A stretch of DNA of 64,000 bases from positions 1-64,000 of IMG/VR virus record IMGVR_UViG_3300045988_077100; one strand, given 5' to 3'. Source of the DNA: a virus. Below the pieces are notes generated by a model. The model saw only the letters and a list, made by a program, of their open reading frames with translations, did no database searches and had not been told where the DNA came from. Shown one piece after another: positions 2,455 to 37,429 of the stretch (its first letter is position 1; each line of letters opens with the position of its first letter). The position numbers and the translations under genes are program-made.

Positions 2455-2529
2455 TGGCAGGGATGGCTGGATTCGGACCAGCGCGTGAGGGAGTCAAAGT
2501 CCCTTGCCTTACCGCTTGGCTACACCCCT
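2455..2529 (-). tRNA. tRNA-Gln (UUG)
   Basis: Manual cloverleaf: AGGGGTG/CATCCCT acceptor, GCC/GGC D stem, AGGGA-CTTTGAC-TCCCT anticodon arm, GCTGG-TCCGAAT-CCAGC T arm, encoded CCA. Confidence 0.85.
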
Positions 2530-2888
2530 GTATTTTTACATAGGCTCCCGGCATTGCGCTCCGTTTGGATTGCTTACACAATTAGCCGTACAGAACCGGG
2601 CAAGCATACTGCCCTACACAACGGCCTTGCCCAAGGGCAGCCGTTACCTCACCACTTCCGCATACCTTTCGATGAACACGCCTCGGAGTTCGCTCTGCAT
2701 GGTTCTGTACGCGCTAACCGCGGAACTTTTCAGCCCTGCGCCGGTATGTCGGTCGCATCCGTTTCTTCATTCATAGCCGGAGCCAGCCAAATAATTATTA
2801 TTCGGCCTGCCGCTTTCATACAGCGCACAGGCAAGCCCCTTGTAGCGGTCTTACCCTTCCGCGGCGCCGCAATGCGGTAGCATACATC
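2530..2888 (-). ncRNA. candidate structured RNA spacer between tRNA genes (family unknown)
   Basis: No credible ORF. An 11-bp perfect long-range inverted repeat (2587-2597 / 2701-2711) encloses nested helices. Several further local hairpins. Confidence 0.3.
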
Positions 2889-2965
2889 TGGCAGGGACGG
2901 TTGGGAATCGAACCCACCCAAGCGGTTTTGGAGACCGCCTCGCCAGCCTTGGAACATTCGCCCCT
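2889..2965 (-). tRNA. tRNA-Trp(CCA)-like, non-canonical (no D stem, irregular T-stem junction)
   Basis: Acceptor AGGGGCG/CGTCCCT + G + CCA. GCGGT-CTCCAAA-ACCGC anticodon arm. GTGGG-TTCGATT-CCCAA T arm with a G.A pair and one extra nt. No pairable D stem was found. Confidence 0.45.
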
Positions 2966-3105
2966 ATGTTTGTCTGTCTTTCCAGACTGTCACCGCTGCG
3001 TGTCGGCTGCCTGCGGTTGGCCCCCATAGGTACACGTTTCTGTTGCCCTGCCGCGCCCATCTCCGGGCAACCCGTTTGTGATTGTACTTCTCATGGCGCT
3101 GGATG

Positions 3106-3180
3106 TGGTGCAGACGGCTGGATTTGAACCTGCATCGTTCCCCACTTCGGGGGTGCTCTAACCTACTGAGCTACGTCTGC
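3106..3180 (-). ncRNA. tRNA-like module 2 (canonical D arm, truncated anticodon arm)
   Basis: GCAGACG/CGTCTGC acceptor + ACCA. GCTC-AGTAGGTTA-GAGC D arm. The anticodon arm is reduced to CCCC-CGAAGT-GGGG (14 nt instead of 17). The T arm has one A.A mismatch. Confidence 0.5.
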
Positions 3181-3371
3181 AAATGTCCCCTCTGGGACAC
3201 TTCGTCAGGGAACCCTGGACGAGAGGTGCGAGGGGTCCTATGCCCAACCGGAATTGCACCGGGGCGTCAAGGGCAAGTACCAGTTGCCGGAGACGAGCTG
3301 CTTTTGCGGGCCGCAGCTTATATATTTATGGAGCACTGGCAGAGACGCATCACCCAAAATGCTCCCCGCCA

Positions 3372-3487
3372 TGGTGCAGATGGTGAGGATTTGCACCTCA
3401 CATAGCCTAACAGTGTCGGCCTCCACCGCTTTGCTGGGCGGCACCCGAACTGTCATTTGTAGCGTCTACCTATTCCGCTACATCTGC
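3372..3487 (-). ncRNA. tRNA-like module 3 (116 nt, extended rod replacing the anticodon arm)
   Basis: GCAGATG/CATCTGC acceptor + ACCA. Class-II-like D arm TAGCG-GAATAGGTAGA-CGCTA. (G)TGAGG-TGCAAAT-CCTCA(C) T arm. The central arm ACAGT-TCGG..CCGC-CCAGCAAA-GCGG..CCGA-ACTGT is about 44 nt. Confidence 0.45.
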
Positions 3488-3644
3488 ATATAGATGCCGG
3501 ACTTTCCCGGCGGTCATGTCGCTCAGATTCTCCGAGAATACCGTCCCGATAGCGGCTGTATCAACCCGCCGACTCCACTGCCAGATATGGAGGTTTCATT
3601 CCCACTACGGTTTATAGAGTAACCACCTCTTATGTGGGCGGGCA

Positions 3645-3713
3645 TGGTGCAGACGGCCGGAGAGGTCCCCGGCTACCGGGTGGAAAGGACAAAAGCACCG
3701 GTTGGACATCTGC
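3645..3713 (-). ncRNA. tRNA-like module 4 (69 nt mini, two hairpins between the acceptor strands)
   Basis: GCAGATG/CGTCTGC acceptor (one G.U) + ACCA. Internal hairpins ACCGGTG..CACCCGGT and CCGGGG-ACCT-CTCCGG. No D arm and no T-loop consensus. Confidence 0.4.
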
Positions 3714-3825
3714 ATAGACCCGCCTTGTTTGCGCCATGGCGGGTGATGTGGCGGCCCGACTTTCCGGGCTGTCATACACATTCAGGAGGCTTTGCAATCC
3801 ATGCAGGGCGCTGCTCGTGCACCCT

Positions 3826-3899
3826 TGGAGCGGATAATGGGAATCGAACCCACCTTCGCGGCTTGGGAAGCCGCCGTTCTACCGATGAACTATATCCGC
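3826..3899 (-). tRNA. tRNA-Gly (CCC)
   Basis: Fully canonical manual fold: GCGGATA/TATCCGC, GTTC/GAAC, GCGGC-TTCCCAA-GCCGC, GTGGG-TTCGATT-CCCAT, T + CCA. Confidence 0.9.
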
Positions 3900-7810: not shown

Positions 7811-7912
7811 AGTAAAATCCTCCTGAAATGTGTTTTGAATGTGTAGATTTTGGCTTTCTGGGGTGCCGTCGCTTTACCCGGTGCGGCGGCTCCAAAGTGT
7901 CCGGGTTTGTGG

Positions 7913-8356
7913 TCAGTCAAGACAGGTTTCATAACGGATGCGGTATTGCTCTTTCAGTTTGTCATAGGCGCGGGTGGTGACGGTGTAGGTGTTGCGCTGC
8001 TCGTCGTAGCTGATGCCGCGTCCGTGGAGCTGCGGGAGACCGTCGCGGAGAGGCCGAAGAAAATAATGCTTGCCGTAGTAGGAAAGATCGGCGGCGAAGT
8101 CGCAGCCGGTGGGGGCCTGCTGCATTTCGTAGCAATAGACGTATTCGCCGGGCTTGTCGGCCTGTACAGCGGGGGCCTTTTCTGCCTCTAATGCGGCGTA
8201 GTCCGGGGCGTAGCCGAACAGCTCGCCGGTTTCGGGGTCGTAGCGGCTGGCGGCAGCGTCCGGGACAAAAAGCGTTGTCTGCTCGTTGATCTGCTGGGCA
8301 TAGCCGCCGGGGACGGGGGCAAAGGTGCCGTTGATCTTGCGTTCGATGGATGCCAT
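7913..8356 (-). CDS. hypothetical protein (147 aa)
   Basis: AAGGAGG RBS, ORF track entry. Confidence 0.6.
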   Translation of the reverse strand: MASIERKINGTFAPVPGGYAQQINEQTTLFVPDAAASRYDPETGELFGYAPDYAALEAEKAPAVQADKPGEYVYCYEMQQAPTGCDFAADLSYYGKHYFLRPLRDGLPQLHGRGISYDEQRNTYTVTTRAYDKLKEQYRIRYETCLD

Positions 8357-8380
8357 TTTGTGATCCTCCTTGATTTTGAT

Positions 8381-8473
8381 TTAGCGGCGGGCCTCGATGA
8401 GATCCACCACGCGGAACATCAGGCGGGCAAAGGTGCCAGCGCCCAGAATAAGGATGAAAAGGTGAAAACTCAT
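8381..8473 (-). CDS. small hydrophobic peptide (30 aa), first ORF of the operon
   Basis: Own translation MSFHLFILILGAGTFARLMFRVVDLIEARR. CAGGAGG RBS 6 nt upstream. Below the ORF-track size cut-off. Confidence 0.4.
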   Translation of the reverse strand: MSFHLFILILGAGTFARLMFRVVDLIEARR

Positions 8474-8506
8474 AGTGTGGGCCTCCTGTCGGTGTGTTGT
8501 GCTGTC

Positions 8507-8609
8507 CACTTGTTAAGTATATTATACCACTTGATAAGTATATGTCTACTGTTTAAGTATACAACTTATTAAGCAGATTTTTGTTGATTTTGTACACTTG
8601 TTAAGAACG
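8507..8609. promoter_or_regulatory. five direct operator-like repeats (CACTTGTTAAGTATA consensus) in a divergent promoter region
   Basis: Copies start at 8507, 8527, 8546, 8562 and 8594. The last overlaps a plus-strand TTGTTA-17 nt-TATGAT promoter for the RHH gene. Confidence 0.55.
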
Positions 8610-8652
8610 TGCAAACAACGTATGATAAAAGACAAGAAAAGGAGGTGGAACC

Positions 8653-8883
8653 ATGCCACCGCGAAAATATACAGAGGCGCAGAAGAACGCCAATAAAAAA
8701 TGGGACGCGGAAAACCTGGACCGGATTTCTATTGCATTGCCTAAAGGCGCAAAGGATACGATCAAGACCCACGCGGCCGCCATGGGGGAAAGTGTAAACG
8801 CATTTTTCAACCGGGCAGCGCTGGAACAGATCAAGCGGGATCGTGGCAGCGAAAAAACAGAAGCAGCCACAGAAACAGAATAA
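8653..8883 (+). CDS. ribbon-helix-helix (Arc/CopG-like) DNA-binding protein
   Basis: ISIALPKGAKDTIKTHAAAMGESVNAFFNRAALEQI fits an RHH beta-strand plus two helices. AAGGAGG RBS. Confidence 0.65.
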   Translation: MPPRKYTEAQKNANKKWDAENLDRISIALPKGAKDTIKTHAAAMGESVNAFFNRAALEQIKRDRGSEKTEAATETE

Positions 8884-8922
8884 AAAAGCAGCGGCCCGGA
8901 GTTTTTCCGGGTCGCTGTTCTG
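8884..8922. terminator. bidirectional terminator
   Basis: 12-bp hairpin CAGCGGCCCGGA/TCCGGGTCGCTG flanked by an A-run and a T-rich run, between convergent genes. Confidence 0.6.
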
Positions 8923-9168
8923 TTACTCCCATCTGTCATAAAAACCAAAGGATCCAAACTGGATTACTTCATCTTCAGTGGTTTCCGTTTCGGACGGATC
9001 GAACGGAACGCCGTACCATCTGCGGTGGGCGACTTCCTCGTGGTTTTCGTCCTCGATTGTAATATCACACTGCGTATAGCCGGCGCGCTCGTCGGCCATG
9101 GCTTTTGCCTCGTCCAAAGTGCCGGCGCACTCGACCCAGAATCCGTTATTGTAATTGATTGTAAACAT
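8923..9168 (-). CDS. hypothetical acidic protein (81 aa)
   Basis: ORF track entry. Confidence 0.55.
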   Translation of the reverse strand: MFTINYNNGFWVECAGTLDEAKAMADERAGYTQCDITIEDENHEEVAHRRWYGVPFDPSETETTEDEVIQFGSFGFYDRWE

Positions 9169-9219
9169 TTTTTCGTCCTTTCTCCCGGTGTAGCCGGGTC
9201 GCTGTTCTGCGTTTTGGGG

Positions 9220-9561
9220 TTAGGCGTTGGCTTGATATTTTGCGAGTGCATCCGAAATAGCACGATTTACAAAAGCGTTTGCCGTTTCCCCCAGGGAGGC
9301 GGCGCAAGTCTTTATAACGGCTTTTTGCCCTTTCGGTAAAACAAGATCCATTCTGTCATAAGTCTTTTTTACATACTTGCGAACGGCGGCTTGCTGGGCC
9401 TTTGTGGTTTTGGTTTTCCGGGTTATATAATCGTTGATGTTTTCGGCGGTTCCGTCGTCCATAGCTTCCGCAGCGGCAAGGCTGGCCGCAGCTCCCCGGG
9501 TGAGATTTTCGGCGGGCTGGGCGTCAATTTCTGCCAGTCGTGCGCGTAATGCTTCGTTCAT
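9220..9561 (-). CDS. RHH-domain protein, candidate antitoxin/regulator (113 aa)
   Basis: Start at MNEALRARL with AGGAGC RBS. The C-terminus LVLPKGQKAVIKTCAASLGETANAFVNRAISDAL is paralogous to the 8653..8883 product. Confidence 0.55.
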   Translation of the reverse strand: MNEALRARLAEIDAQPAENLTRGAAASLAAAEAMDDGTAENINDYITRKTKTTKAQQAAVRKYVKKTYDRMDLVLPKGQKAVIKTCAASLGETANAFVNRAISDALAKYQANA

Positions 9562-9640
9562 GTTATATGCTCCTTTCAATGCCTCAATACGATTGTTTAT
9601 GCTGCTTTTTCTGCTTCTTTATTCGGCTTCTTGTTCTGTT

Positions 9641-9895
9641 TTAGTATATGTCTCCGCGTGTATTGATCTCTTTTACAGTAACGGTTTCTTTGTCCGTGTC
9701 AATCTGGAAAATTGCCCGGTAATGATAGATTTTCAACCGGTACATGCGAGAGCCAGCACCCCGCAAGGGGACAATATCGCCGGAAAGGGTTGATAATCCG
9801 GCCACCGCCGCCGCTACCCGGCCCCGTTCAGGCTCCGGGAGCTTGTCTAAATATTTTTGCGGCTGCTTCTTGATGATAACCGTTAGTCCGTCCAC
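9641..9895 (-). CDS. RelE/ParE-family type II toxin
   Basis: 84 aa, GTG start with AAGGAGG RBS. ...LPEPERGRVAAAVAGL...DIVPLRGAGSRMYRLKIYHYRAIFQIDTDKETVTVKEINTRGDIY matches the RelE/ParE fold pattern. Confidence 0.75.
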   Translation of the reverse strand: MDGLTVIIKKQPQKYLDKLPEPERGRVAAAVAGLSTLSGDIVPLRGAGSRMYRLKIYHYRAIFQIDTDKETVTVKEINTRGDIY

Positions 9896-9934
9896 GTTTC
9901 CGCCTCCTTTACTGTCGATATTTTACCACCCTAT

Positions 9935-10020
9935 ATATAATTCTGTAAATATACAATTTCAACAATATAATTACAGAATTATTGGTTATTTTGAACCTTG
10001 ATATAATTACAGAATTATAT
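9935..10020. promoter_or_regulatory. AT-rich operator/promoter region with three 18-bp boxes
   Basis: ATATAATTACAGAATTAT at 9965 and 10001. Inverted copy ATATAATTCTGTAAATAT at 9935, overlapping a minus-strand TTTACA-18 nt-TAAAAT promoter for the toxin gene. Confidence 0.5.
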
Positions 10021-10099
10021 ATAATAGAATCATAAAGAACAGGACAACACCACGGAGGCCGACAGGCCAGAGGGGCACCGCCCCGGAAAGGATCACAAA

Positions 10100-10276
10100 A
10101 TGGATTACAGCAAAATGAGCATGGACAAGCTCCGCAAGCTGATCGCCTGGGCTGATGACCGGGCAGCATACCGGAGGGCCTGCGGGACGATCTCCGGCAC
10201 GGCATACGCCGAGGATGAAACCGCAGTAAGGGCAGCACTCGCAGAGATCAACCGCCGCACACGGGCGACCGCATAA
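10100..10276 (+). CDS. small hypothetical protein (58 aa)
   Basis: Own translation MDYSKMSMDKLRKLIAWADDRAAYRRACGTISGTAYAEDETAVRAALAEINRRTRATA. Weak GAAAGGA RBS. Below the track cut-off. Confidence 0.4.
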   Translation: MDYSKMSMDKLRKLIAWADDRAAYRRACGTISGTAYAEDETAVRAALAEINRRTRATA

Positions 10277-10295
10277 GAAAGAGGAGGAACACGAA

Positions 10296-10658
10296 ATGAA
10301 AAAGAGCTTTTTTGAAATGATCCCCGGCGTTGTCCGCCTGGACTCCCGCGTTGCTATCTACGTGCCCAGCACCACCGACACCGACCACCCCACCGACAAC
10401 CGGCAGCAGGTGGAGGAAGTCGCCGCGAAGCTGTCCGCCATGTTTGGCGGAGCCACCGCCACCGAGGCCCGCGGCTACTGGGTGAGCCAGTCCGCCGGAC
10501 TCGTGGGCGAGGCCGTCACCATCGTTTACAGCAACGCCGCAGCCGAGGACATCGAGCGCCACGGCGCCGAAATCGTCGCCATCTGCCACAAGATCAAACG
10601 CGAGATGAAACAAGAGGCCGTCAGCCTTGAGATCAACGGCGAACTGTTTCTTGTATGA
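10296..10658 (+). CDS. hypothetical protein (120 aa)
   Basis: GAGGAGG RBS, ORF track entry. Confidence 0.6.
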   Translation: MKKSFFEMIPGVVRLDSRVAIYVPSTTDTDHPTDNRQQVEEVAAKLSAMFGGATATEARGYWVSQSAGLVGEAVTIVYSNAAAEDIERHGAEIVAICHKIKREMKQEAVSLEINGELFLV

Positions 10659-10687
10659 TCTCCGCCGCCCCCTATACCATACACCAC

Positions 10688-10717
10688 AGCCCGCAGGGAA
10701 TGCCCCCGCGGGCTTTT
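10688..10717 (+). terminator. rho-independent terminator
   Basis: AGCCCGC...GCGGGCT hairpin followed by TTTT. Confidence 0.6.
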
Positions 10718-11208
10718 CTCGTGCCCTCTGAGCGATACAGCCCAGCACCGCACCGCAGGCCCACGCCGCGCAGCCGCTTGCACCCTACGCCGCCCCAGGC
10801 GGCTATTTTTAACCCCTATGCGCGCGGGCGCGTTTATTGCGGGCGCGGTCTATTATAGTACCCTAAAACGTACCCCATAGAACCCCCGGACGCTTTACCC
10901 AAATGAAGAAAAGCGCGGAGCACTCCCGCAGGACCGGAAGCAATGGACAAAGGAAAAGGGGGAAGGGGTGGAGGAGTCACCCGCGGCGGTCTGTTCCGGC
11001 TGATTGCATCGGCCCGACCTCCACGGCCACCGCCGACCATGCCAGACCGGGAACCGTCAGCGGACCAGCCGCCGACCATCGGAGGACGGCCACCACCACC
11101 GGCACCGAGGGCCAGAGAACCGACCGCAGCCCCGGCTCCCGCCGCCTTTCGTCAGGTTGCACAAGGGCGGCATGGGCTGTTGTTGCATTTACCACCAAAA
11201 AAGGCGGT

Positions 11209-11243
11209 AACTGTTGCCATAATTGCTTATTATGGCAACAGTT
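11209..11243. repeat. perfect 15-bp inverted repeat (AACTGTTGCCATAAT / ATTATGGCAACAGTT, 5-nt spacer)
   Basis: Read directly from the sequence, inside the 1.07-kb non-coding tract. Confidence 0.85.
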
Positions 11244-11728
11244 TAGGCATTTGCAACAGGGTTTGACCCTTTCCGAGACCCGCCCAGCGGCCCCGCCTCC
11301 GCTCCAATGGCACCGGCTGACCGGCTGACCACGGCCCCGGCTGGGTGGGGGGTGGTTTACAGACCTGGCCACCGGATTGGCGCAGAATCTCTCCACAACT
11401 CTTCCCCCTCCTCTCACGTTCTCTTCAACCCACGTTCTCATCCCCGTCGCCCTTCCTTTCCCTTTAAATGGGGGGGGTAGTTTAGAAAACCGGGGGCAAA
11501 AAACGGAAAAGTCAAAAAGGGGTCCAAAAAAAATTTTATAAAAACGCTTCGCTTATGTGTGGGGAATACGTACTTAGGTTGCGCGGCGCGGGCGGAGCGC
11601 AGACGGTCGGTAGGTGACGTGCTGATGGGCGGTAGGTGAAGCAGACGTGCAAAAACCCTATTGGAGGGGGTTGCTATGCTAAAGATAGGAGAACTTTTGT
11701 GAAGCCATGGCAATGGAGGTGAGCGTGA

Positions 11729-12118
11729 ATGCCAAGCGGGAGTTCTGAGCGCTGTGTGTCATTGTTTGAGTTTTGGGGAGACAAGAGCCAGTATGCGGCG
11801 TGGCTGCAAGGGGAGTTTGCTGAAGAAGCGGATTTCCATGCCCATACGCTAAACGCCTTGCGGGTGGCGATGGACGAAGAACTGACGGATACACAGAGGA
11901 AGTATATGGAGATGTTTTTCGTCTATGGCATGAGCATGAAGGATATCGGTCAAGAGTTGGGGGTAGCCACGGCAACAGTCAGCAGGACAATCAATTGTGG
12001 GCTGGATAGACTGTACCATGTCCTCCGCTACGCGAACCCCCGATACCTGACCTTTCCGAAAAGCCGCACGGCAGCATCTCTAAAGAAGGGGCGCAAGCGG
12101 TGTGGGAAAGGGTCTTAG
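11729..12118 (+). CDS. sigma-70 region-4 (HTH) domain protein, small sigma-like factor
   Basis: LTDTQRKYMEMFFVYGMSMKDIGQELGVATATVSRTINCGLDRL is a region 4.2 HTH pattern. GGAGGTG RBS. Confidence 0.7.
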   Translation: MPSGSSERCVSLFEFWGDKSQYAAWLQGEFAEEADFHAHTLNALRVAMDEELTDTQRKYMEMFFVYGMSMKDIGQELGVATATVSRTINCGLDRLYHVLRYANPRYLTFPKSRTAASLKKGRKRCGKGS

Positions 12119-16526: not shown

Positions 16527-17690
16527 TCAGGCGGGCGCACAAGGCTTTTTTTCGAGGGGATGTTCTGCGTCCGAATCGGGGTCATGGCCTCGGTTTTTGT
16601 AAAACCGCTCCATTTTGTTTTCGGCGTTGAGCCGATCTTCTTTGGCAAGTTTTAGGTAAATCTTGTGAACGGTGTTGTGGTCGCTCCATCCGCCGATTTC
16701 TTGCACCTCCAATTCGCTAAGCCCCAGATGGAAACCGAGGGAGGCAAAGGAGCGGCGAAGTCCGTGAACACCGCACTCAGGAAGGTCATTCTTTTTGCAG
16801 ATCAGGTTAATGCCGCCGCGCAAAGAATTTTCAGTACAATCCAGAATGGGAAGGCCGGCACTTTTCCTCTGTGAAAGCAGGTCATAAAGGGCGGGGATCA
16901 TAATTTGGATCGTGCGTTGAGACGAAACGTTTTTGTTAGTCTTTTTATACACAAAGTCTCCGTTTTTATCCATGACCCGTGCGCCCTGAATTTTGATCCG
17001 CTTTTTCTTTAAGTCGATGTTTTCCCAAGATAGGCCGAATATTTCAGACCGGCGGAGGCTGTGAAGGGCCAGCAGCGCGCCCACTTCAAACCGGCTGCCG
17101 CTCACAGCGTCCACAAAAACAAGGATCTGCTGGTAGGTCAGCCAGGGAAGGTCTTTTTTTATGCTTTGAGGGAGACGGACTTCCGGCGGAGCGATGTGAT
17201 TATCCCGCATCACGGTGCAAACAAGGCCCCATGAATTATACACTGTTTTAGGGGACAGGGTTTCACTGGCTTCGTCGATCTCCTGCTGCCAATTTGATAT
17301 ATCCTGTATTTTGGCATTGATCTTTCCGGGGAAGCGATTCTTTTTGATACACTCATATCCCCGGATCGTGGATGGAGACAAAGATTGATTTTTTTCCAAA
17401 TAACTGTCGATTGCCTGAAGAAGCGTGAGACTGCATTTTGCGTCCTTTTTAGCTTCCAGAAAGCCGGCGCGGATGGCGCGGGCCTTGGCTTCGCAGAGAG
17501 CGGCGGTATCTTCCGTGATACTTTGCCCTTCGGCCCGCAGTTCGATGTTCCACTTGCCGGACTTCAACTGACGTGGGGAGGGGACTTTGATCTCGTCCTT
17601 CTTTTTGCGCTCCCTAATCTGGCGTTCGCCGCACCACTTGCAGAAGATAGAATCATCATCAATGACACGCTTACAGTTTTTGCATTTCAT
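16527..17690 (-). CDS. int: tyrosine-type site-specific integrase with N-terminal zinc ribbon
   Basis: Start at MKCKNCKRVIDDDSIFCKWCG with GGGAGG RBS. C-terminal catalytic pattern ...HSLRRSE...HGLRRSFASL...GWSDHNTVHKIYLK (R..HxxR..Y). Confidence 0.9.
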   Translation of the reverse strand: MKCKNCKRVIDDDSIFCKWCGERQIRERKKKDEIKVPSPRQLKSGKWNIELRAEGQSITEDTAALCEAKARAIRAGFLEAKKDAKCSLTLLQAIDSYLEKNQSLSPSTIRGYECIKKNRFPGKINAKIQDISNWQQEIDEASETLSPKTVYNSWGLVCTVMRDNHIAPPEVRLPQSIKKDLPWLTYQQILVFVDAVSGSRFEVGALLALHSLRRSEIFGLSWENIDLKKKRIKIQGARVMDKNGDFVYKKTNKNVSSQRTIQIMIPALYDLLSQRKSAGLPILDCTENSLRGGINLICKKNDLPECGVHGLRRSFASLGFHLGLSELEVQEIGGWSDHNTVHKIYLKLAKEDRLNAENKMERFYKNRGHDPDSDAEHPLEKKPCAPA

Positions 17691-17710
17691 GCGCACACCT
17701 CCCGTGTGTA

Positions 17711-18163
17711 TCAGCCGTGGAAGAACCCAAATTCCAGACAGTGCAGATCCAGATAAACGGCGTAAGCCACGACGAAGATCAAAAGGACCAACATCCATCG
17801 CAAAAGACGGTCCCGGTTGCGGATGCCGTGGGACTGACGTTCCACAAATTCCCGGAGAAGTTCGTTCTGGGCGTTCAGGCCGTTGATCTCCTGACGGTAG
17901 ACGTCCAGTTCCCGGCTTACGATCTCCTCAATGGTTTCTGGGGGTGTAGGATCTTCCGCTGGCTCCATTCCCAAAAACTGATCAATGGAAATTCCGAGGA
18001 AAGCGCAGATGGGTCCAAGGGTTTCCAGTGTAGGGGAATGGGTGGTAGCGCGGAACATATTGTTCACCGTGTTGAGAGGAACTCCGCTGCCGTCCGCGAT
18101 TTCCTTGTTTGTGATGTGTTTTTCCTCTTTTGCCGCGCGGCACTGATCAATCAATGACAGCAT
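17711..18163 (-). CDS. XRE-family HTH regulator with C-terminal transmembrane anchor
   Basis: HITNKEIADGSGVPLNTVNNMFR HTH. C-terminal LLRWMLVLLIFVVAYAVYL TM segment. Confidence 0.7.
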   Translation of the reverse strand: MLSLIDQCRAAKEEKHITNKEIADGSGVPLNTVNNMFRATTHSPTLETLGPICAFLGISIDQFLGMEPAEDPTPPETIEEIVSRELDVYRQEINGLNAQNELLREFVERQSHGIRNRDRLLRWMLVLLIFVVAYAVYLDLHCLEFGFFHG

Positions 18164-27320: not shown

Positions 27321-27838
27321 GCGTTTGTTTGGATGATCTGAACAGCCTGCCGGAGCGCTACCGGAAGCAGGTACAACAGCAGATGCAGGCCCAGCAGATC
27401 GACCGGACGGCCAGAGTAATGGCTCAATTCGTGACGGAGGAGAAGGGGAAGGCGGAAGCGGCGGCGGAGGGCAAGCGCAAGCACCATAACCACCCCACCG
27501 CCCGGACCCTGCCCAACGGAACGGAGCACACCTTCGACAGCCGCAAGGAGGCGGCCCGGTATGACGAGCTGGCACTGCTCAGCAAGGCAGGGGCTATCCG
27601 GGACCTGCGGCTCCAACCTCAATTCACGCTGAAAGAAAGCTACATCACGGCCAACGGCGACCGAAGCCGCGCCGTGACGTATCGGGCGGACTTCTCCTAC
27701 GAGGAGCGGGGGAAGGACGGCACATGGAATCTGGTGGTGGAGGACGTAAAAGGCCCCTCCACGAAAAAAGACAAGACCTACCGCATGAAGGTGAAGCTGA
27801 TGCAGGACATGAAGCACATTACCGTGCGGGAGGTATGA
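27317..27838 (+). CDS. DUF1064-like protein (putative Holliday-junction resolvase class)
   Basis: FDSRKEAARYDELALLSKAGAIRDLRLQPQFTL...YRADFSY...VVEDVKG...YRMKVKLM pattern. Confidence 0.65.
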   Translation: MSVCLDDLNSLPERYRKQVQQQMQAQQIDRTARVMAQFVTEEKGKAEAAAEGKRKHHNHPTARTLPNGTEHTFDSRKEAARYDELALLSKAGAIRDLRLQPQFTLKESYITANGDRSRAVTYRADFSYEERGKDGTWNLVVEDVKGPSTKKDKTYRMKVKLMQDMKHITVREV

Positions 27839-28224
27839 ACGGAAAGGAGATATGCCCGGTGGAGACCGTAACTGTGATCGTGCGGGCTGTGCTGCCCTGG
27901 GACAGCGCAGACGGGAAAGACCGGATCGAGATATGCACCCATGACCGGCAGAGCCAGATCGACTACTGCCTGAACCACTGCCCCTATGCAGAATGCGTGA
28001 ACTGCGCGGGTGGAGGTCGGACTACCAGCCGCGGCGGACGGCCACCCCTTCTGCGGGAAGCGGAAATGCAGAAGCTGCGGGAACTGCTGGAAGCCCGGAC
28101 AGCCCCGGCGGACATTTGCCGGGAGATGCACATGGACGCGGATTTTCTAAGTCGGTGCAAACGGAAACTGCGGAGGGAAAGAAAACGAGACGATTATTTG
28201 AAAATGCAAAAGGGGGTGATTTAG
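27835..28224 (+). CDS. hypothetical protein (129 aa)
   Basis: ATGA-coupled start. Ends with TAG at 28222-28224. Confidence 0.5.
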   Translation: MNGKEICPVETVTVIVRAVLPWDSADGKDRIEICTHDRQSQIDYCLNHCPYAECVNCAGGGRTTSRGGRPPLLREAEMQKLRELLEARTAPADICREMHMDADFLSRCKRKLRRERKRDDYLKMQKGVI

Positions 28225-30082
28225 GTGAAGCATTATGGAGATGTCACAAAAATTTACGGAAATGAAGTAGAACCCGTGGATTGTGTGATAGGTGGTTCAC
28301 CTTGTTAGACAGGACCTTTCCATTGCCGGAAAGAGGGCGGGGCTTGCCGGGGCGCGTTCCGGCCTGTATATGGAGCAAATACGGATTATCAAGGAGATGA
28401 GAGAACGTGACAGAAGAATGGGGCGAACAGGTGAGTTTGTGCGACCTCGGTATATGGTCTGGGAAAATGTCCCCGGAGCCTTCTCAAGCAACGGCGGAAA
28501 AGACTTCGCAGCCGTCCTCGAAGAAGCCATCCGCATCGCAGAACCGGAAGCCCCCAATATTGAAGTGCCTGAAAAAGGTTGGAACACCTGGGGGGGATAC
28601 CACGATGAAATGGGAGGACGATGGAGCGTTGCGTGGCGAGTGCTCGATGCGCAACACTGGGGAGTCCCCCAACGTCGCCGTAGAATCGCGCTTGTCGCAG
28701 ATTTTGGAGGCGACACCGCATGGGAAATATTGTTTGAGCGGCAAAGCATGTCAGGGTATCCTGCGGAGAGCGGAGCGCCGGGGGAAGGCCCTGCCGGGGA
28801 TTCTGAAAACGGTGCTGGTGGAGCAGGCAAAGACGCCGGATCAGTAATCTGCCTCCAAGGGAATGCAATCGACCGGGCTGATACCGCCGGATGCAACGGG
28901 AAGGGCTGGAAAGAAGATGTCTGCTATACGTTGAACACCATTGGCCGTCCGGCGGTCTGCGCCGGTCTGGACTGCCTTACTCCGTGGGATTGCCAGAGCA
29001 AGCGGGTATACAGCGAAGCCGGTGTGATGCCAACGTTGCCAGCCGGAGAAAACAGCGGTCAGAATCAGGAATCCGTACTGTGCGCCGGGTTTAAGCTGGG
29101 GAACAGCGAACAAGCCCGGAGCATCGGATACGCCGAGGAACAGGCCCCTACGCTGAACGCAGAGTGCGGAGGAAACAAACCGGCGGTGATGTGCCTGAAC
29201 GATCAAGGCGGGAATGTGATGGGCGTGAGCCATGATGTTTCCGGGACGCTGAGAGCACAGGAGCATGGGCACCAGCCCTCCATTCTGGATATGAGCCACG
29301 CCTGCGACGTCATCCGGGACTGCGGCGAGGTAGCTCCCAGTCTGCAAGCCCGTATGGGAACCGGCGGCAACCGAATACCGCTGACGTACCAGAAAACAAC
29401 CGGAACTTTATCGCCCGGAGCACACGCAGGGAGCTATAACGGGCAGGACGCTTACAACGATATGCTGGTGGTATCAAGCGAAATTTCCCCAGCATTAAGA
29501 GCAAAAGCCAATGACCCATACCGAACAGATATGGCCGCGTATGTCGCAAGCGTAGATTGCCGAAATTTCACCGAGGGCGGGGAGATCAACGGAACCTTGC
29601 AGGCAAAGGAAAGCGAAGGCCAAAGCCTGAATCTGAACAATACGGTCCGCCAAAACATGGTGGTTCGCCGTCTGACCCCGCTGGAGTGCGAACGGCTTCA
29701 GGGGTTTCCGGACGGATGGACAGATATTGGAGATTGGGTCAAAACAGATAAACGCGGGCGCAAAATAAAAGTGAAAGGAAGTGCGGACAGCCCCCGGTAT
29801 AAGGCACTGGGCAACTCCATCGCCCTGCCGCCGTGGAAATGGCTGCTAAAACGGCTGTGCGGCAACTACGAGCGGGACGCCACAATGGCGAGTTTGTTCG
29901 ATGGAATAGGCGGGTTCCCTTTGATTTGGGAGCAACTGAACGGGCGCGGGACTTGTCTGTGGGCCAGCGAGATCGAGGAGTTCCCCATCGCCGTGACCAA
30001 ACGGCGGTTCGGCACGGTGGAGGAACCGGGAGACATGGGGCGGTTTTTGTTCCCATGCGGAAACGAAAGGAGCGGGACATGA
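28225..30082 (+). pseudogene. DNA (cytosine-5)-methyltransferase, circularly permuted motif order and interrupted in the PCQ motif
   Basis: GTG at 28225 gives VKHYGDVTKIYGNEVEPVDCVIGGSPC, then TAG at 28306. The +1 frame continues QDLSIAGKRAG (IV), WENVPG (VI), GVPQRRRRI (VIII), TPLECERLQGFPDGW (IX), GNSIALP (X), then MASLFDGIGGF (I) and WASEIEEFPIAV (II). Confidence 0.8.
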
Positions 30083-30276
30083 AGCACAGCAACGATTACT
30101 GGGAACAGGAAGCCTATTGGGAGCTGGAACGGCGGCGGGCGGAGAAAAACCGCAAAACCAGAGAGCAGCGGCGGCGGGAGCGGGCGGACACCTCCGCCAT
30201 GATCGGCGGAATTTGCTTTTTACTGCTGCTGGCGGTTCTTTTGGCAAATGTCATGCTGGGAGGCGATACGCTATGA
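30079..30276 (+). CDS. small membrane protein (65 aa)
   Basis: MKHSNDYWEQEAYWELERRR...IGGICFLLLLAVLLANVML. ATGA overlap with the upstream stop. Confidence 0.5.
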   Translation: MKHSNDYWEQEAYWELERRRAEKNRKTREQRRRERADTSAMIGGICFLLLLAVLLANVMLGGDTL

Positions 30277-30509
30277 ACAGGGGAAACCGGAGAGCGGGGG
30301 AGCACCGGGTACTGGAACCGTGCGCCCTGTGCGGAATGTACAGTGGGGAGCGGATGGAGGACGCGGCGCCACCCTTTGACTTCGCCGTGGTGTGCGCTTC
30401 CTGCGGGGCGCGGACCAGACCGTATCACGGTCTGAACTGCGCCACAAAAGCGTGGAACCGGGGAGACGTTTACCGCCCGGAGAAAGGAAAACACTATGTA
30501 TCACTGTGA
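30273..30509 (+). CDS. lar: Lar-family restriction alleviation protein
   Basis: EPCALCG...FAVVCASCGARTRPYHGLNCATKAWNRG matches the Lar zinc-ribbon pattern (CPFCG...V.C..CGA....A..AWNRR). Confidence 0.65.
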   Translation: MNRGNRRAGEHRVLEPCALCGMYSGERMEDAAPPFDFAVVCASCGARTRPYHGLNCATKAWNRGDVYRPEKGKHYVSL

Positions 30510-35189: not shown

Positions 35190-35560
35190 CAATGGCTCAA
35201 CGGAAGAAACGATACCGGCTGTACGCCATGGGGCGGACCCGGAAAACGGAAGAGATCGCGTATGACACCCGGTTTTACCGGATCTGCGCAGGGTACATTC
35301 TGCTGTATCTCACCGGACGGAAAAAGCCGGAGGGCGCAGTGGAGGTGGCCGGGGCGGACCTGGACCGTCTGACAGACGGGGACCGCCTGTGGCTGGCAGA
35401 CTGCAACACCATGATCCTGGCAGAAGCGGCGGCCCAAGCGGGCGTAACGCCGGAAGAAGCGGAGAAGCAATGGGTCAGCACTCTGGACCGGCTGGAATGG
35501 GAATTGCAGAAGGAGCGGGAACGCATGAAGGGAGGCGGGGAGCATGGACCTGCAAACTGA
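35186..35560 (+). CDS. hypothetical protein (124 aa)
   Basis: ORF track entry, coupled start. Confidence 0.5.
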   Translation: MTMAQRKKRYRLYAMGRTRKTEEIAYDTRFYRICAGYILLYLTGRKKPEGAVEVAGADLDRLTDGDRLWLADCNTMILAEAAAQAGVTPEEAEKQWVSTLDRLEWELQKERERMKGGGEHGPAN

Positions 35561-37316
35561 ATTGAGGTCGGTGCAGTTCGCCTCGTACCCGAAGATATTC
35601 GGAAGGCTGCGGGAACTGGCGGCACAGTACGGCGACCTGCCCATGGACGCCGTAAGCAGCGCGTTTATGCGGGCGGCCAGCAACACCTACACCCGGAATA
35701 ACCCCTACATTCAGAACCGCCGGGTAAAGGCCATTTCCTCGCTGCCGGTGAATTACAGCAAGGACAAGGTGGCGGAGATGCTCACCGCACCGGACGGCAA
35801 CGAACAGGGCCTGCGGCAGGTGGCCCACGCGCTGGAATGGACGGCGTATCCCCTGTTTCACACCCGGAAGGTGTACACGGAAATGCTGACCTACCACAGC
35901 TACATTGCCCCGGAGTACGCCACAGAGGAAGAAGCGAAGCGGGAGGACTTCCTGCGGGAATGGCAGCTTTTGGACAAGCTGCGGAAAACGCTGGACCCCA
36001 AGGCCACGGCCCATGAGATCGCGGGGCAGGTATTGCAGGAGGGGAAGGTTTTCTACTATCCCCGGGTCAGCGTGGACAAGCCCCACAACAAGGTAAACCA
36101 CGCTTTTTTACAGCAGCTCCCCAGCGACTGGGTAAAGATCGTGGGGTTCAACAACGTGTCGAAATACACGGTGGCGATGAACCTGATGTACTTTATGCAG
36201 CCGGGGACGGACCCCTTGCAGTTCGGAGACCTGCTGCTGCCCTATCTGGATGACTTCTACGCATCGGCGGAGCGGGCACCGGAGGGCACGGGGAAGCGGG
36301 TGATCTTCGCGGCGCGGGACCGGGTGGACCTGAACGTGCTGGAACAGCGGAGGAAGCAGACCGGCGGCCGCTTGGCGGGAGACCCGGAGGTATACTCCCA
36401 GAACGGGCGGTGGTTCTACTGGGTGACGCTGCCGGTGGACAAGATTTTCACCTTTGAGGCAGACGATGTATCCCGGAACGCCATTTCCCCGCTGGCGGGG
36501 CTGTATCTCTCTCTGGTGCAGATGGCGCAGTACGAGCAAATCCAACTGGAACTGGTGCAGAACCCCCTGATCGCCCTGTTTACCGGCGAGATCCCCTACA
36601 AGGATAAGTCCGAAATTACAAGCACAGAGGACGATTACCGGCTTTCCGACGCGGGACGGCGGCTGTTTGAGTACCTGTGGTATCAGATGCTGACAGAGAG
36701 CAACACCAGCGGGATCGGCTGGTTCACGGCCCCTGTGGAAAACATCAAAATGCACCAGTTGGCAGAAGCACCCAGCGCCACCAAGATTTCCGCAGCCGGG
36801 TACAGCTACGCCATGAACAAGGCAGGGCTGTCCGCCATCGTCCCCACCACGGAGGACCCCAAGGCGGGCATCGCACAAATCTCCCTGCAGATCGAGGGAA
36901 AGTTTGCGGAGTGCGTATACCGGGGCTACGAACGGATGATGGCCGCCATTATGGACAAGCTGAATCTGAAATATTCGTGGCGGTTTGAGCTATTCGGAGA
37001 AATCGCAACGGATGATGATTTGCGTGAAAGCCTGCGAAAAGATATGACCCTTGGGATTCTATCCGCCTCTGCGAAATACATGGCGTTATACGATATGTCA
37101 CTATTGGATGATTTGTCATTGAGCAATGCAATCATTGCATCTGGCATTATGGAGAAAAGAATTCCGCTTGCGTCTACCTATACCGGCGGTGGAGATGCAA
37201 ATAAATCCCAAGGGGGAGAGGCAAAAAGAATTATGAACCCCGGGGGGAGGCCAACATCTGGCGGCAAAGTAACAAGCGAGGGACAAGAGGCCGACTTAGA
37301 TACTTACGGGGAATGA
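35544..37316 (+). CDS. portal protein
   Basis: 590 aa directly after the terminase gene. Call is based on size and position. Confidence 0.7.
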   Translation: MDLQTELRSVQFASYPKIFGRLRELAAQYGDLPMDAVSSAFMRAASNTYTRNNPYIQNRRVKAISSLPVNYSKDKVAEMLTAPDGNEQGLRQVAHALEWTAYPLFHTRKVYTEMLTYHSYIAPEYATEEEAKREDFLREWQLLDKLRKTLDPKATAHEIAGQVLQEGKVFYYPRVSVDKPHNKVNHAFLQQLPSDWVKIVGFNNVSKYTVAMNLMYFMQPGTDPLQFGDLLLPYLDDFYASAERAPEGTGKRVIFAARDRVDLNVLEQRRKQTGGRLAGDPEVYSQNGRWFYWVTLPVDKIFTFEADDVSRNAISPLAGLYLSLVQMAQYEQIQLELVQNPLIALFTGEIPYKDKSEITSTEDDYRLSDAGRRLFEYLWYQMLTESNTSGIGWFTAPVENIKMHQLAEAPSATKISAAGYSYAMNKAGLSAIVPTTEDPKAGIAQISLQIEGKFAECVYRGYERMMAAIMDKLNLKYSWRFELFGEIATDDDLRESLRKDMTLGILSASAKYMALYDMSLLDDLSLSNAIIASGIMEKRIPLASTYTGGGDANKSQGGEAKRIMNPGGRPTSGGKVTSEGQEADLDTYGE

Positions 37317-37429
37317 CATGGTTGTCAGCATGGGGATAGGGTAGCTCCCGAAAAGCGGTTGCCTTGCCGCCTTCCCCAGCTTACAAAAAGGCAAATTACG
37401 AAAGGCGGTAATTGAATGTGAGCACTGTC

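What the first reader, a model, noticed from the sequence alone, without database searches (positions are those of the whole stretch)
28225..30082. C5 DNA methyltransferase with circularly permuted motif order (IV-X then I-II) and a 4-nt insertion inside the catalytic PCQ motif
There are two anomalies.

(1) Motif order. The reading frame starts with ...HYGDVTKI...GGSPC (motif IV region). It continues through ENV (VI), QRRR (VIII), a ~330-aa target-recognition region, TPLECERLQGFPDGW (IX) and GNSIALP (X). It then runs on in frame into MASLFDGIGGF (motif I, from 29885) and WASEIEEFPIAV (II) before stopping. Joining the C-terminus back to the N-terminus would recreate a normal I-X enzyme. This is the signature of permutation by tandem duplication and trimming. 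I know of permuted C5 MTases with other break points (M.BssHII, plant DRM), but not one broken between II/III and IV.

(2) Interruption. Between TGT (Cys, 28303-28305) and CAG (Gln, 28310-28312) lie four extra bases, TAGA. They create an in-frame TAG and a +1 shift, so the catalytic Cys sits on a 27-codon leader ORF. The gene is either an inactivated pseudogene or an enzyme that needs recoding.
Basis: partly seen in the sequence, partly recalled or inferred. Interest (0 to 1): 0.7.

Follow-up and report, generated by a model that had tools for sequence, protein, structure and literature searches.

The report
Permuted phage methylase with recoding stop
A prophage cytosine DNA methylase whose domain order is naturally circularly permuted, and whose catalytic Cys-Gln pair is split by a conserved TAG-plus-one-base insert that probably has to be skipped by the ribosome rather than marking a dead gene.

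Summary
Both anomalies are real, and neither is private to this genome. (1) The gene belongs to a very large gut-phage family of C5 DNA methyltransferases with motif order III-IV-VI-VIII-TRDs-IX-X-I-II. The break lies between motifs II and III. This is the "Type B" topology, which engineered M.MpeI and M.SssI tolerate with wild-type activity but which was reported absent from nature. Canonical-order relatives fix the breakpoint, and the C-terminal I-II segment is under purifying selection. (2) TGT-TAGA-CAG is not an assembly error. The identical ORF occurs on 10 contigs. TGT-TAG-N-CAR (N = A, C or T) occurs in more than 119 IMG/VR stretches, in many divergent leader lineages and also in canonical-order relatives. 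The leaders keep 27 codons and motif III/IV residues, with pN/pS of 0.16-0.33. The Cys codon is always TGT and the Pro codon always CCY. No TAA, TGA or other 4-nt insert exists at this site. The best reading is a conserved recoding site (a net +1 shift or a 4-nt bypass at a UGU_UAG shifty stop) that gates methylase expression. The mechanism and the activity are untested. The pseudogene and two-polypeptide readings remain possible. Also seen: length-variable poly-G tracts, a conserved nested +1-frame ORF, and a three-recombinase element that targets the same TGY|CAG site.

The parts
28212..28224 (+). Shine-Dalgarno GGGGGTGA (28212-28219), then the TAG stop (28222-28224) of upstream ORF 27724-28224, which abuts the leader start codon
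   Evidence: Read directly. GGTGAT..TAG-GTG is shared by most TAGN alleles.
28225..28305 (+). Leader segment of 27 codons with a GTG start. It carries motif III (HYGDVTKI) and the first half of motif IV, ending in the catalytic Cys (GGSPC).
   Evidence: The 27-codon frame and the motif residues are kept in all TAGN lineages. pN/pS is 0.16-0.33.
28290..28302 (+). AGGTGGTTCACCT. It is SD-like (AGGTG) and anti-SD-like (TCACCT). It can form a local hairpin, or pair with AGGTGAA at the leader start (28223-28229).
   Evidence: RNAalifold gives a consensus helix. The duplex is more stable in TAGN leaders than in intact ones (-13.1 vs -9.0 kcal/mol, p=3e-8). There is almost no covariation, so this part is inferred.
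28300..28312 (+). Candidate recoding core CCT TGT TAG A CAG, i.e. CCY-UGU-UAG-N-CAR. TAGA is at 28306-28309.
28310..30082 (+). Methyltransferase body in the +1 frame. It carries the second half of motif IV (QDLSIAGKR), ENV (28463-28471), QRRRR (28670-28684), a variable region of about 330 aa with several TRD-like modules, motif IX (29666-29719), motif X (29810-29830), then motif I, motif II and the stop codon.
29885..30013 (+). Permuted C-terminal segment: motif I (MASLFDGIGGF, still with its ATG) and motif II (WASEIEEFPIAVTKRRFG, 29960-30013)
   Evidence: It aligns to residues 6-55 of canonical-order relative L099 (42% identity, E=4e-8). pN/pS is 0.17 over 51 family sequences. Pfam profile positions 4-43.
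30014..30082 (+). Tail TVEEPGDMGRFLFPCGNERSGT plus stop. This may be a degenerate relic of the duplicated motif III.
   Evidence: The BLASTP alignment runs on into EVTHVGDI / EVKHYGDI of canonical relatives. This is weak and only suggestive.
28590..28596 (+). G7 tract inside Trp-Gly-Gly. It is in frame in this window. It is one of the family's length-variable poly-G tracts.
28605..28847 (+). Nested ORF of 80 codons in the +1 frame of the body (MKWEDDGALRGEC...KACQGILRRAERRGKALP...). It is conserved across the family.

Best explanation
The locus encodes a prophage C5 cytosine DNA methyltransferase with a long multi-TRD variable region. It sits between the replication module and a Lar-like anti-restriction gene. 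Its catalytic domain is a natural circular permutant: a tandem duplication, fusion and trimming moved motifs I-II to the C-terminus, so the protein starts at motif III. In this allele the codons for the catalytic Cys and the next Gln are separated by TAG-A. I propose that this is a conserved translational recoding site. The ribosome translates the 27-codon leader and pauses at the weak terminator UAG-A, with tRNA-Cys wobble-paired on UGU. A fraction of ribosomes then resume in the +1 frame. They either skip the four bases, restoring an exact PCQ, or read AGN, inserting one Arg or Ser. The result is full-length enzyme. The remaining ribosomes terminate and release a 27-aa peptide. The site would act as a throttle or switch on methylase output, on top of the poly-G tracts. 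What is shown: the permuted order, its family-wide conservation, the reality and conservation of TAG-N, and purifying selection on both sides of it. What is inferred: that ribosomes change frame here, how they do so, and that the product is active.
For: Permutation. Pfam and PDB coordinates are out of canonical order. BLASTP against canonical-order relative L099 gives q1-189/s49-227, q333-543/s259-496 and q552-603/s6-55. All 80 best IMG/VR loci share this order. At E<=1e-30, 702 cluster representatives (50% identity) match the IX-X-I-II junction query, and the top 150 each match as one stretch ending at or near the C-terminus. The I-II segment has pN/pS of 0.17. Engineered II|III permutants of M.MpeI and M.SssI have wild-type-like activity (PMC5944983). 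Recoding. The same TAGA allele appears in many assemblies. The exact ORF is on 10 contigs from NCBI, Logan and ENA, and the allele is in GenBank record MT835520.1. These include canonical-order genes whose ORFs are long and intact on both sides. Every TAGN leader has another TAGN leader as its nearest neighbour, and none is more than 75% identical to any intact leader. The start codon is GTG in 45 of 48. Among TAGN alleles pN/pS is 0.16-0.33 for the leader and 0.16-0.37 for the body, much as in intact alleles. After excluding one non-methylase chance hit, the Cys codon is TGT in 57/57 TAGN leaders against 68/163 intact ones, and the Pro codon is CCY in 57/57 against 87/163. N is A, C or T, never G, in real methylase contexts. 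Near-identical alleles differ only by TAGA versus TAGC. IMG/VR holds no TAA or TGA variant, no other 4-nt insert, and no TAGN in PCQxFS-type methylases. The canonical TAGC alleles have no start codon in the body frame upstream.
Against: There is no experimental or proteomic evidence of frame change. UGU cannot re-pair in the +1 frame (GUU), and there is no matching landing codon, so this is not a textbook slippery site or bypass. The SD-like element lies 8 nt upstream, not 3, and is missing from the canonical TAGC alleles. Half of the TAGN alleles (31/62) carry further frame changes, against 12/42 intact-PCQ controls. Nearly all of these changes are at poly-G tracts. Closely related TAGN leaders show very low synonymous diversity (pS 0.003 against 0.05 in their bodies). 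That could mean a young leader module is spreading by recombination rather than being maintained long-term. Bodies could also be refreshed by recombination with intact alleles. The structure prediction failed (pLDDT 27), so the fold of the permutant was not checked directly.
Confidence: 0.6

Rival explanations
1. Inactivated allele. TAGN is a disabling insertion that arose once in a low-GC leader module. It spreads among phages by recombination or hitch-hiking. The gene is dead or dying in this prophage.
For: There is an in-frame stop inside the catalytic motif. 31 of 62 TAGN alleles have further frame changes. Synonymous diversity among close TAGN leaders is very low, and the leader is grafted onto bodies that closely resemble those of intact alleles, which suggests recent modular spread.
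Against: TAGN leader lineages have diverged to about 60% nt identity yet all keep 27 codons, the motif III/IV residues and pN/pS of 0.16-0.33. TGT, CCY and TAG are invariant while the neighbouring codons vary. The window body is an uninterrupted 596-codon ORF. The extra frame changes sit at poly-G tracts and also occur in 29% of intact-PCQ controls. TAGN also occurs in canonical-order genes with bodies of 516-658 codons.
Confidence: 0.22
2. Two-polypeptide enzyme. Ribosomes terminate at TAG and re-initiate at the GTG 14 nt upstream (28292). This yields a 27-aa peptide carrying motif III and the catalytic Cys, plus a 596-aa body (MVHLVRQDLS...). The two assemble non-covalently.
For: A start codon lies 18 nt upstream of CAG in the body frame in most TAGN contexts (6 of 93 have no start codon at all). 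GGT-GGT, which creates that GTG, is strongly enriched in TAGN alleles. Natural split C5 methylases exist (M.AquI and M.EcoHK31I, from memory).
Against: Six of 93 contexts, including those checked among the canonical-order TAGC genes, have no start codon in the body frame upstream. No SD precedes the GTG. A break immediately after the nucleophile Cys, combined with a 6-residue N-terminal extension on the partner, has no precedent.
Confidence: 0.1
3. Footprint of a mobile element, for example the three-recombinase RIT element that inserts at the same TGY|CAG junction, left behind after imprecise excision.
For: A RIT element with inverted repeats of about 90 bp interrupts a permuted methylase gene at TGC|CAG (L081), and its 95% relative interrupts an unrelated PCQPFS methylase gene at TGT|CAG (L082).
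Against: The element ends (TTATCCCGAA... and ...CGGAATAAC) contain no TAGN. TAGN alleles share other derived features (GTG start, distinct leader clade, TGT/CCY) that a footprint does not explain. IMG/VR holds no TAGN in PCQxFS-type genes.
Confidence: 0.03
4. Artefact: the TAGA is a sequencing or assembly error, or the I-II tail is a neighbouring gene fused by a lost stop codon in this genome only.
For: None found.
Against: The identical ORF is on 10 contigs from three sources. More than 100 independent contigs from many datasets carry TAGN. The junction architecture is present in hundreds of protein clusters.
Confidence: 0.01

Closest known systems
[quoted passage not shown] 2018, PLoS One, PMC5944983)
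   Same: The new N-terminus lies between motifs II and III, and the old termini are joined so that motif X runs into motif I. These constructs were as active as wild type, which shows that the topology is viable.
   Different: Those constructs are laboratory products. [quoted passage not shown] Here it is natural and abundant in gut phages. It also has a multi-TRD variable region of about 330 aa and a short extra tail.
Natural circularly permuted C5 methylases of Type H (M.BssHII, M.Alw26I, M2.Eco31I, M.Esp3I, M2.BsaI), and plant DRM2
   Same: They are circular permutations of the same fold, thought to arise by tandem duplication and trimming.
   Different: Their break lies in the variable region (IX-X precede I-VIII) or, in DRM2, between V and VI. 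Here the break lies inside the SAM-binding subdomain, between II and III.
prfB (RF2) programmed +1 frameshift, CUU UGA C
   Same: An in-frame stop in a weak 4th-base context serves as the pause site, there is an upstream SD-like sequence, a net +1 shift is required for the full-length product, and there is regulatory potential through release-factor activity.
   Different: In prfB the P-site tRNA re-pairs (CUU to UUU) and the SD lies 3 nt upstream. Here UGU cannot re-pair, four bases separate the two sense codons, the stop is always UAG, and the SD-like element lies 8 nt upstream and is not universal.
Translational bypassing and stop-hopping (T4 gene 60; short hops over stops in E. coli)
   Same: The take-off codon is followed directly by UAG. 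Skipping the four bases would give the exact canonical PCQ sequence.
   Different: The gap is 4 nt rather than 50. There is no matched landing codon: AGN pairs with tRNA-Cys at only 1-2 positions. No dedicated downstream structure was seen.
Phase-variable DNA methyltransferases with homopolymer tracts, and multispecific Bacillus phage methylases (SPR, phi3T, rho11s)
   Same: This family carries poly-G tracts of variable length (G7-G11) and a long variable region with several TRD-like modules.
   Different: TAGN is not a repeat and cannot switch by slipped-strand mispairing. The multispecificity is inferred from the architecture only.

Membership tests
C5 cytosine DNA methyltransferase (Pfam PF00145) | Motifs I (FxGxGG), II, III, VI (ENV), VIII (QxRxR), IX and X are present | tested here: met
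   PF00145 E=6e-25 for the body. The C-terminal 65 aa match profile positions 4-43. The motifs were read directly in the translation.
C5 cytosine DNA methyltransferase (Pfam PF00145) | A contiguous catalytic PCQ (motif IV) in one reading frame | tested here: not met
   TGT and CAG are separated by TAGA. They become contiguous only after conceptual removal of the 4 nt.
C5 cytosine DNA methyltransferase (Pfam PF00145) | Canonical linear order I to X | tested here: not met
   The order is III-IV...X-I-II.
C5 cytosine DNA methyltransferase (Pfam PF00145) | m5C-forming activity | not testable with these tools
   This needs a methylome or an enzyme assay.
Type B circular permutant of C5 methylases (classification of PMC5944983) | N-terminus between motifs II and III, with motif X joined to motif I in one chain | tested here: met
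   BLASTP to canonical relatives places the break at ...KRLPE|MKHYGD. The junction is conserved in 702 cluster representatives.
Type H natural permutants (M.BssHII group) | N-terminus in the variable region, with IX-X preceding I-VIII | tested here: not met
   The variable region is internal, and IX-X follow VIII.
Programmed +1 ribosomal frameshift at a shifty stop (prfB type) | A shift site with an in-frame stop, conserved across diverged homologues, with purifying selection on both flanks | tested here: met
Programmed +1 ribosomal frameshift at a shifty stop (prfB type) | The P-site tRNA can re-pair in the +1 frame | tested here: not met
   UGU to GUU gives no pairing with anticodon GCA (sequence plus standard pairing rules).
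Programmed +1 ribosomal frameshift at a shifty stop (prfB type) | An SD-like stimulator a few nt upstream | tested here: inconclusive
   AGGTG lies 8 nt upstream in most permuted alleles and is absent from the canonical TAGC alleles.
Programmed +1 ribosomal frameshift at a shifty stop (prfB type) | A trans-frame protein product is observed | not testable with these tools
   This needs a reporter assay or mass spectrometry.
Translational bypass (gene 60 type) | Matched take-off and landing codons flanking the skipped gap | tested here: not met
   Take-off is UGU. The triplet before CAR is AGN, which matches tRNA-Cys at 2 of 3 positions for N=C or U and at 1 of 3 for N=A.
Simple-repeat phase-variable methylase gene | The frame switch lies in a homopolymer or short tandem repeat | tested here: not met
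   TAGA is single-copy with no flanking repeat. Separate poly-G tracts elsewhere in the gene do fit this feature.
Decaying pseudogene | Relaxed constraint (pN/pS near 1, plus indels or stops) on the cut-off 5' segment | tested here: not met
   Leader pN/pS is 0.16-0.33 at 50-97% identity. The 27-codon length is kept in 45 of 48 unique leaders. Only the very closest pairs show a ratio of about 1.2, based on very few changes.

The most novel reading that the evidence does not exclude
CCY-UGU-UAG-N-CAR is a previously undescribed, evolutionarily maintained recoding signal. It is a 4-nt bypass or a non-slippery +1 shift at an amber codon, placed between the nucleophile Cys and the Gln of the catalytic motif. 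It is used by a large clade of gut-phage C5 methylases, both permuted and canonical, to gate enzyme production. [quoted passage not shown]
Probability: 0.5. Interest if true: 0.85.

Novelty: new variant of a known kind. Interest (0 to 1): 0.75.

Why it matters
There are two points, of interest to different specialists. First, C5 methylase researchers predicted from engineering that a II|III permutation is fully viable and were puzzled that nature does not use it. This family shows that nature does, on a large scale, in human-gut phages. That bears on REBASE-style annotation and on motif-order-based gene callers. Second, a stop codon plus one base, conserved inside a catalytic motif across more than 100 diverged genes, would be a new natural recoding context. 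It has no slippery codon and is strictly UAG-specific. It would also be a new way for temperate phages to meter an epigenetic or anti-restriction enzyme. In practice, annotation pipelines now call these genes from GTG 28292 as Cys-less methylases or as pseudogenes, so phage methylation capacity in gut metagenomes is probably being misjudged.

Tried and rejected
1. An AlphaFold2 model of the intact homologue P0001 with 23 near-identical sequences gave pLDDT 27 and was uninformative. No deeper admissible alignment could be built.
2. TAG read as an amino acid (a code-15 type phage) is rejected. The frame after TAG is still wrong, and TAG ends the upstream ORF at 28222-28224.
3. A suppressor or frameshift tRNA was considered. 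The window has tRNA-Gln(TTG), tRNA-Trp, tRNA-Gly and an odd tRNA with a 6-nt anticodon loop at 2455-3899. These lie about 12 kb outside the apparent prophage (integrase-sized ORF at 16527-17798), and a 6-nt loop would not give a +1 shift, so this was not pursued.
4. Slipped-strand phase variation at TAGA is rejected because there is no repeat.
5. A generic mutational hotspot at PCQ-coding DNA is rejected. IMG/VR has no TAGN in PCQxFSxAG genes, no TAA or TGA variant and no other 4-nt insert.
6. A downstream stimulatory RNA structure was considered. TAGN bodies closely resemble those of intact relatives from CAG onward, so any signal must lie upstream.
7. The start-region/pre-shift helix is more stable in TAGN alleles but nearly invariant, so covariation neither supports nor refutes it.
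8. Literature searches for a recoding site in a DNA methylase found nothing. Searches for a natural II|III permutant found only the statement that none is known.
Full report
A GTG at 28225 opens a 27-codon ORF. It reads VKHYGDVTKIYGNEVEPVDCVIGGSPC and ends with TGT (28303-05) and TAG (28306-08). After one more base (A, 28309), CAG GAC CTT TCC... continues in the +1 frame as QDLSIAGKRAGL. That frame stays open to 30082. Removing TAGA gives a 617-aa protein. Pfam PF00145 matches the body (E=6e-25). It also matches the last 65 residues, at profile positions 4-43, while the N-terminus matches positions 72-129. phmmer against PDB aligns residues 4-58 of the close intact homologue P0001 to M.HaeIII 48-102 and M.HhaI 59-114. 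HYGDVTKI is motif III, so the new N-terminus lies between motifs II and III.

**The gene sits in a prophage early region.** Upstream are a replisome organizer/DnaD-like protein, a helicase-loader-like protein and a DUF1064 Holliday-junction resolvase. Downstream is a Lar-like restriction-alleviation protein. ORFs of the sizes expected for terminase, portal and tail genes follow. These were not annotated.

**The permutation is family-wide.** A search with the repaired protein returned thousands of gut-phage and metagenome proteins. The best 120 are 79-96% identical and cover 95-100% of the query (one covers 66%). Those read in full end ...GNSIALPPWKWLLKRLCGNYERDATMASLFDGIGGFPL..WASEIEEFPIAVTKRRFGT.... 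All 80 best IMG/VR loci, down to about 54% identity, match through motif II at the C-terminus. A 138-aa query spanning IX-X-I-II found 702 representatives of 50%-identity clusters at E<=1e-30. The top 150 each match as a single stretch ending at or near the protein's C-terminus. Across 51 distinct family sequences the C-terminal I-II segment has pS 0.64 and pN/pS 0.17.

**Canonical-order relatives fix the breakpoint.** Examples are L099 (504 aa), L217, L245 and the Oscillospiraceae phage NatCom_11393 protein. BLASTP of the window protein against L099 gives q1-189/s49-227 (52% identity), q333-543/s259-496 and q552-603/s6-55 (42%, E=4e-8). The break therefore falls at ...TxKRLPE|MKHYGD... The retained ATG at motif I fits tandem duplication, fusion and trimming. 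So does a tail (TVEEPGDM...) that aligns weakly with the start of motif III.

**The literature makes this topology noteworthy.** Albert et al. 2018 (PMC5944983) built permutants of M.MpeI and M.SssI. The II|III permutants (Type B) were by far the most active, comparable to wild type. A REBASE survey in the same paper found 27 natural permutants, all broken in the variable region (Type H). [quoted passage not shown] I found no later report of one.

**The TAGA interruption is not an error and is not private.**
- Many database proteins start MVHLVRQDLS..., which is the same allele called from GTG 28292.
- The window's exact 596-aa ORF lies on 10 contigs from NCBI, Logan and ENA.
- Of the 80 protein-selected IMG/VR loci, 17 carry TGT-TAGA-CAG.
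- They fall into two gene lineages that are only about 55% identical as proteins. Their leaders differ at roughly 30% of bases, mostly by synonymous or conservative changes.
Together with the earlier loci this makes 137 loci and 93 distinct contexts.
- The allele also occurs in GenBank MT835520.1 and in Butyrivibrio, Dysosmobacter, Oribacterium and other Clostridia MAGs.
- Leader lineages are numerous: VKHYGDVTKI.., VKHLGDITKI.., VIHLGDICKI.., VKHYGSICEIDGSK.., VKHFGDIKKL.., VEHLGDITKL.. and others.
- TAG-C also splits PC|QDLS in canonical-order genes (L217, L226, L245, L379, L384). Where sequenced, these have motifs I-III upstream in the leader frame, bodies of 516-658 codons, and no start codon in the body frame upstream. 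The interruption is therefore independent of the permutation.

**Several features point to a maintained signal rather than decay.**
- *Leader clade:* Every TAGN leader's nearest neighbour is another TAGN leader. None is more than 75% identical to any intact leader. 45 of 48 start with GTG 27 codons before the Cys, whereas intact alleles mostly start with ATG.
- *Selection:* Among TAGN alleles pN/pS is 0.16, 0.22 and 0.33 for the leader and 0.17, 0.20 and 0.37 for the body, at increasing divergence. These values are similar to those of intact alleles.
- *Codon choice:* After excluding one non-methylase chance hit, L386, the Cys codon is TGT in 57/57 unique TAGN leaders against 68/163 intact ones. 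The Pro codon is CCY in 57/57 against 87/163. Both differences stay significant after clustering at 80% identity.
- *The fourth base:* N is A (98 loci), C (36) or T (3), and never G. Near-identical alleles differ only by TAGA versus TAGC. From memory of E. coli work, A and C are weak fourth bases for termination.
- *Specificity:* IMG/VR holds no TAA or TGA version (one chance hit), no 4-nt insert starting with a base other than T, and no TAGN in PCQxFSxAG-type genes.
- *Upstream sequence:* TAGN leaders are enriched for GGT-GGT-TCA-CCT. This sequence creates an SD-like AGGTG, an anti-SD-like TCACCT and a GTG in the body frame. TCACCT can pair with AGGTGAA at the leader's own start. That duplex is more stable than in intact alleles (-13.1 vs -9.0 kcal/mol, p=3e-8). 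It hardly varies, however, so covariation is uninformative.

**Some evidence cuts the other way.**
- Half of the TAGN alleles (31/62) show additional frame changes, against 12/42 intact-PCQ controls sampled the same way.
- Nearly all of these changes are at poly-G tracts whose length varies from G5 to G11, mostly G7-G11, between close relatives. This looks like homopolymer phase variation or sequencing noise, not random decay. It does mean that many copies are off at any given time.
- Close TAGN leaders have about 16-fold lower synonymous diversity than their bodies. This fits either RNA-level constraint or recent spread of the leader module by recombination. Group A bodies closely resemble those of intact alleles from CAG onward.
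- UGU cannot re-pair in the +1 frame, and there is no cognate landing codon.

**My mechanistic reading is inferred, not shown.** I take the site to be a shifty stop. tRNA-Cys is held on UGU only by a G:U wobble, and UAG sits in a weak termination context. A fraction of ribosomes resume at CAR, either by a 4-nt bypass that gives an exact PCQ or after decoding AGN as one extra Arg or Ser. UAG is the only stop codon whose middle base can pair with C35 of tRNA-Cys at the AGN triplet. It is also the near-cognate of Gln codons. Either fact could explain the strict TAG requirement. Comprehensive reviews and surveys of recoding mention no such site in a DNA methylase.

**Rival explanations.**
- A spreading dead allele: about 0.2.
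- A two-chain enzyme made by termination and re-initiation at GTG 28292: about 0.1. It is weakened by the alleles that lack any restart codon.
- A mobile-element footprint: about 0.03.
- An artefact: about 0.01.

**Side observations.**
- A conserved 80-codon ORF is nested in the +1 frame of the body at 28605-28847. It shows the codon periodicity of that frame across 65 representatives.
- A three-tyrosine-recombinase element is inserted exactly at TGY|CAG in two unrelated C5 methylase genes.

**Verdict.** The finding is real. The frameshift is most likely a new, conserved recoding site rather than a lesion, but this needs a reporter or mass-spectrometry test.

Noticed in passing
window 28605-28847 (+); longer alt-frame ORF 28407-28847: A conserved 80-codon ORF is nested in the +1 frame of the methylase body (MKWEDDGALRGEC..LSQILE..KACQGILRRAERRGKALP..). 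In 191 of about 258 family members the peptide lies in frame +1 relative to PCQ. Over the last 25 codons, alt-frame amino-acid identity is 0.68 against 0.24 for the methylase frame. Nucleotide variability follows the alt frame's codon periodicity (0.32/0.19/0.50). Both frames lack stops in 65/65 representatives. Database hits are all 35-95 aa ORFs with no Pfam domain. Function is unknown. It recalls the M.EcoHK31I beta polypeptide (from memory).
   Followed up: partly
window 28590-28596; family loci such as L115, L129, L212, L229: Poly-G tracts inside the methylase gene vary from G5 to G11, mostly G7-G11, between near-identical alleles. They lie at Trp-Gly-Gly and at Arg-Gly-Gly-Cys-Asp. They account for nearly all extra frame changes, in both TAGN alleles and intact-PCQ alleles. 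This is either phase variation or homopolymer sequencing error. The window's G7 tract may also act as the SD for the nested ORF (GGGGGGGATACCACGATG).
   Followed up: partly
L081 ~7886-11760 (same contig as L017); L082: An element with three tandem tyrosine recombinases (552, 407 and 348 aa, all PF00589) and inverted repeats of about 90 bp (RIT-like) is inserted exactly at TGC|CAG of motif IV in a permuted methylase gene. Its 95% relative abuts TGT|CAG CCT TTC AGC (PCQPFS) of an unrelated C5 methylase gene. This suggests site-specific targeting of PCQ-coding DNA.
   Followed up: partly
window 2455-3899 (-): A tRNA cluster is present: Gln-TTG, Trp-CCA, Gly-CCC, and a tRNA at 3106-3180 that ARAGORN reads with a 6-nt anticodon loop (Rfam tRNA, 48 bits). 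Two further tRNA-like stretches (about 3366-3486 and 3640-3716) share the same acceptor ends (GCAGAYG...CRTCTGCACCA). The cluster lies well outside the apparent prophage.
   Followed up: no
window 28222-28227: The stop codon TAG of upstream ORF 27724-28224 (166 aa, Cys-rich, no Pfam or PHROG hit) directly abuts the leader's GTG start. The TAG-GTG arrangement recurs in most TAGN alleles, which suggests translational coupling.
   Followed up: no
window 37329-37391 (+): There is an Rfam int-alpA RNA match (40.9 bits, gathering score 35.8) just downstream of the ORF 35544-37316 that I take by size and position to be the portal gene.
   Followed up: no
window 30117-30509 (+): A Lar-like restriction-alleviation protein (phrog_599, E=2e-6) is encoded just downstream of the methylase gene. 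The phage therefore pairs a methylase with a second anti-restriction function.
   Followed up: no
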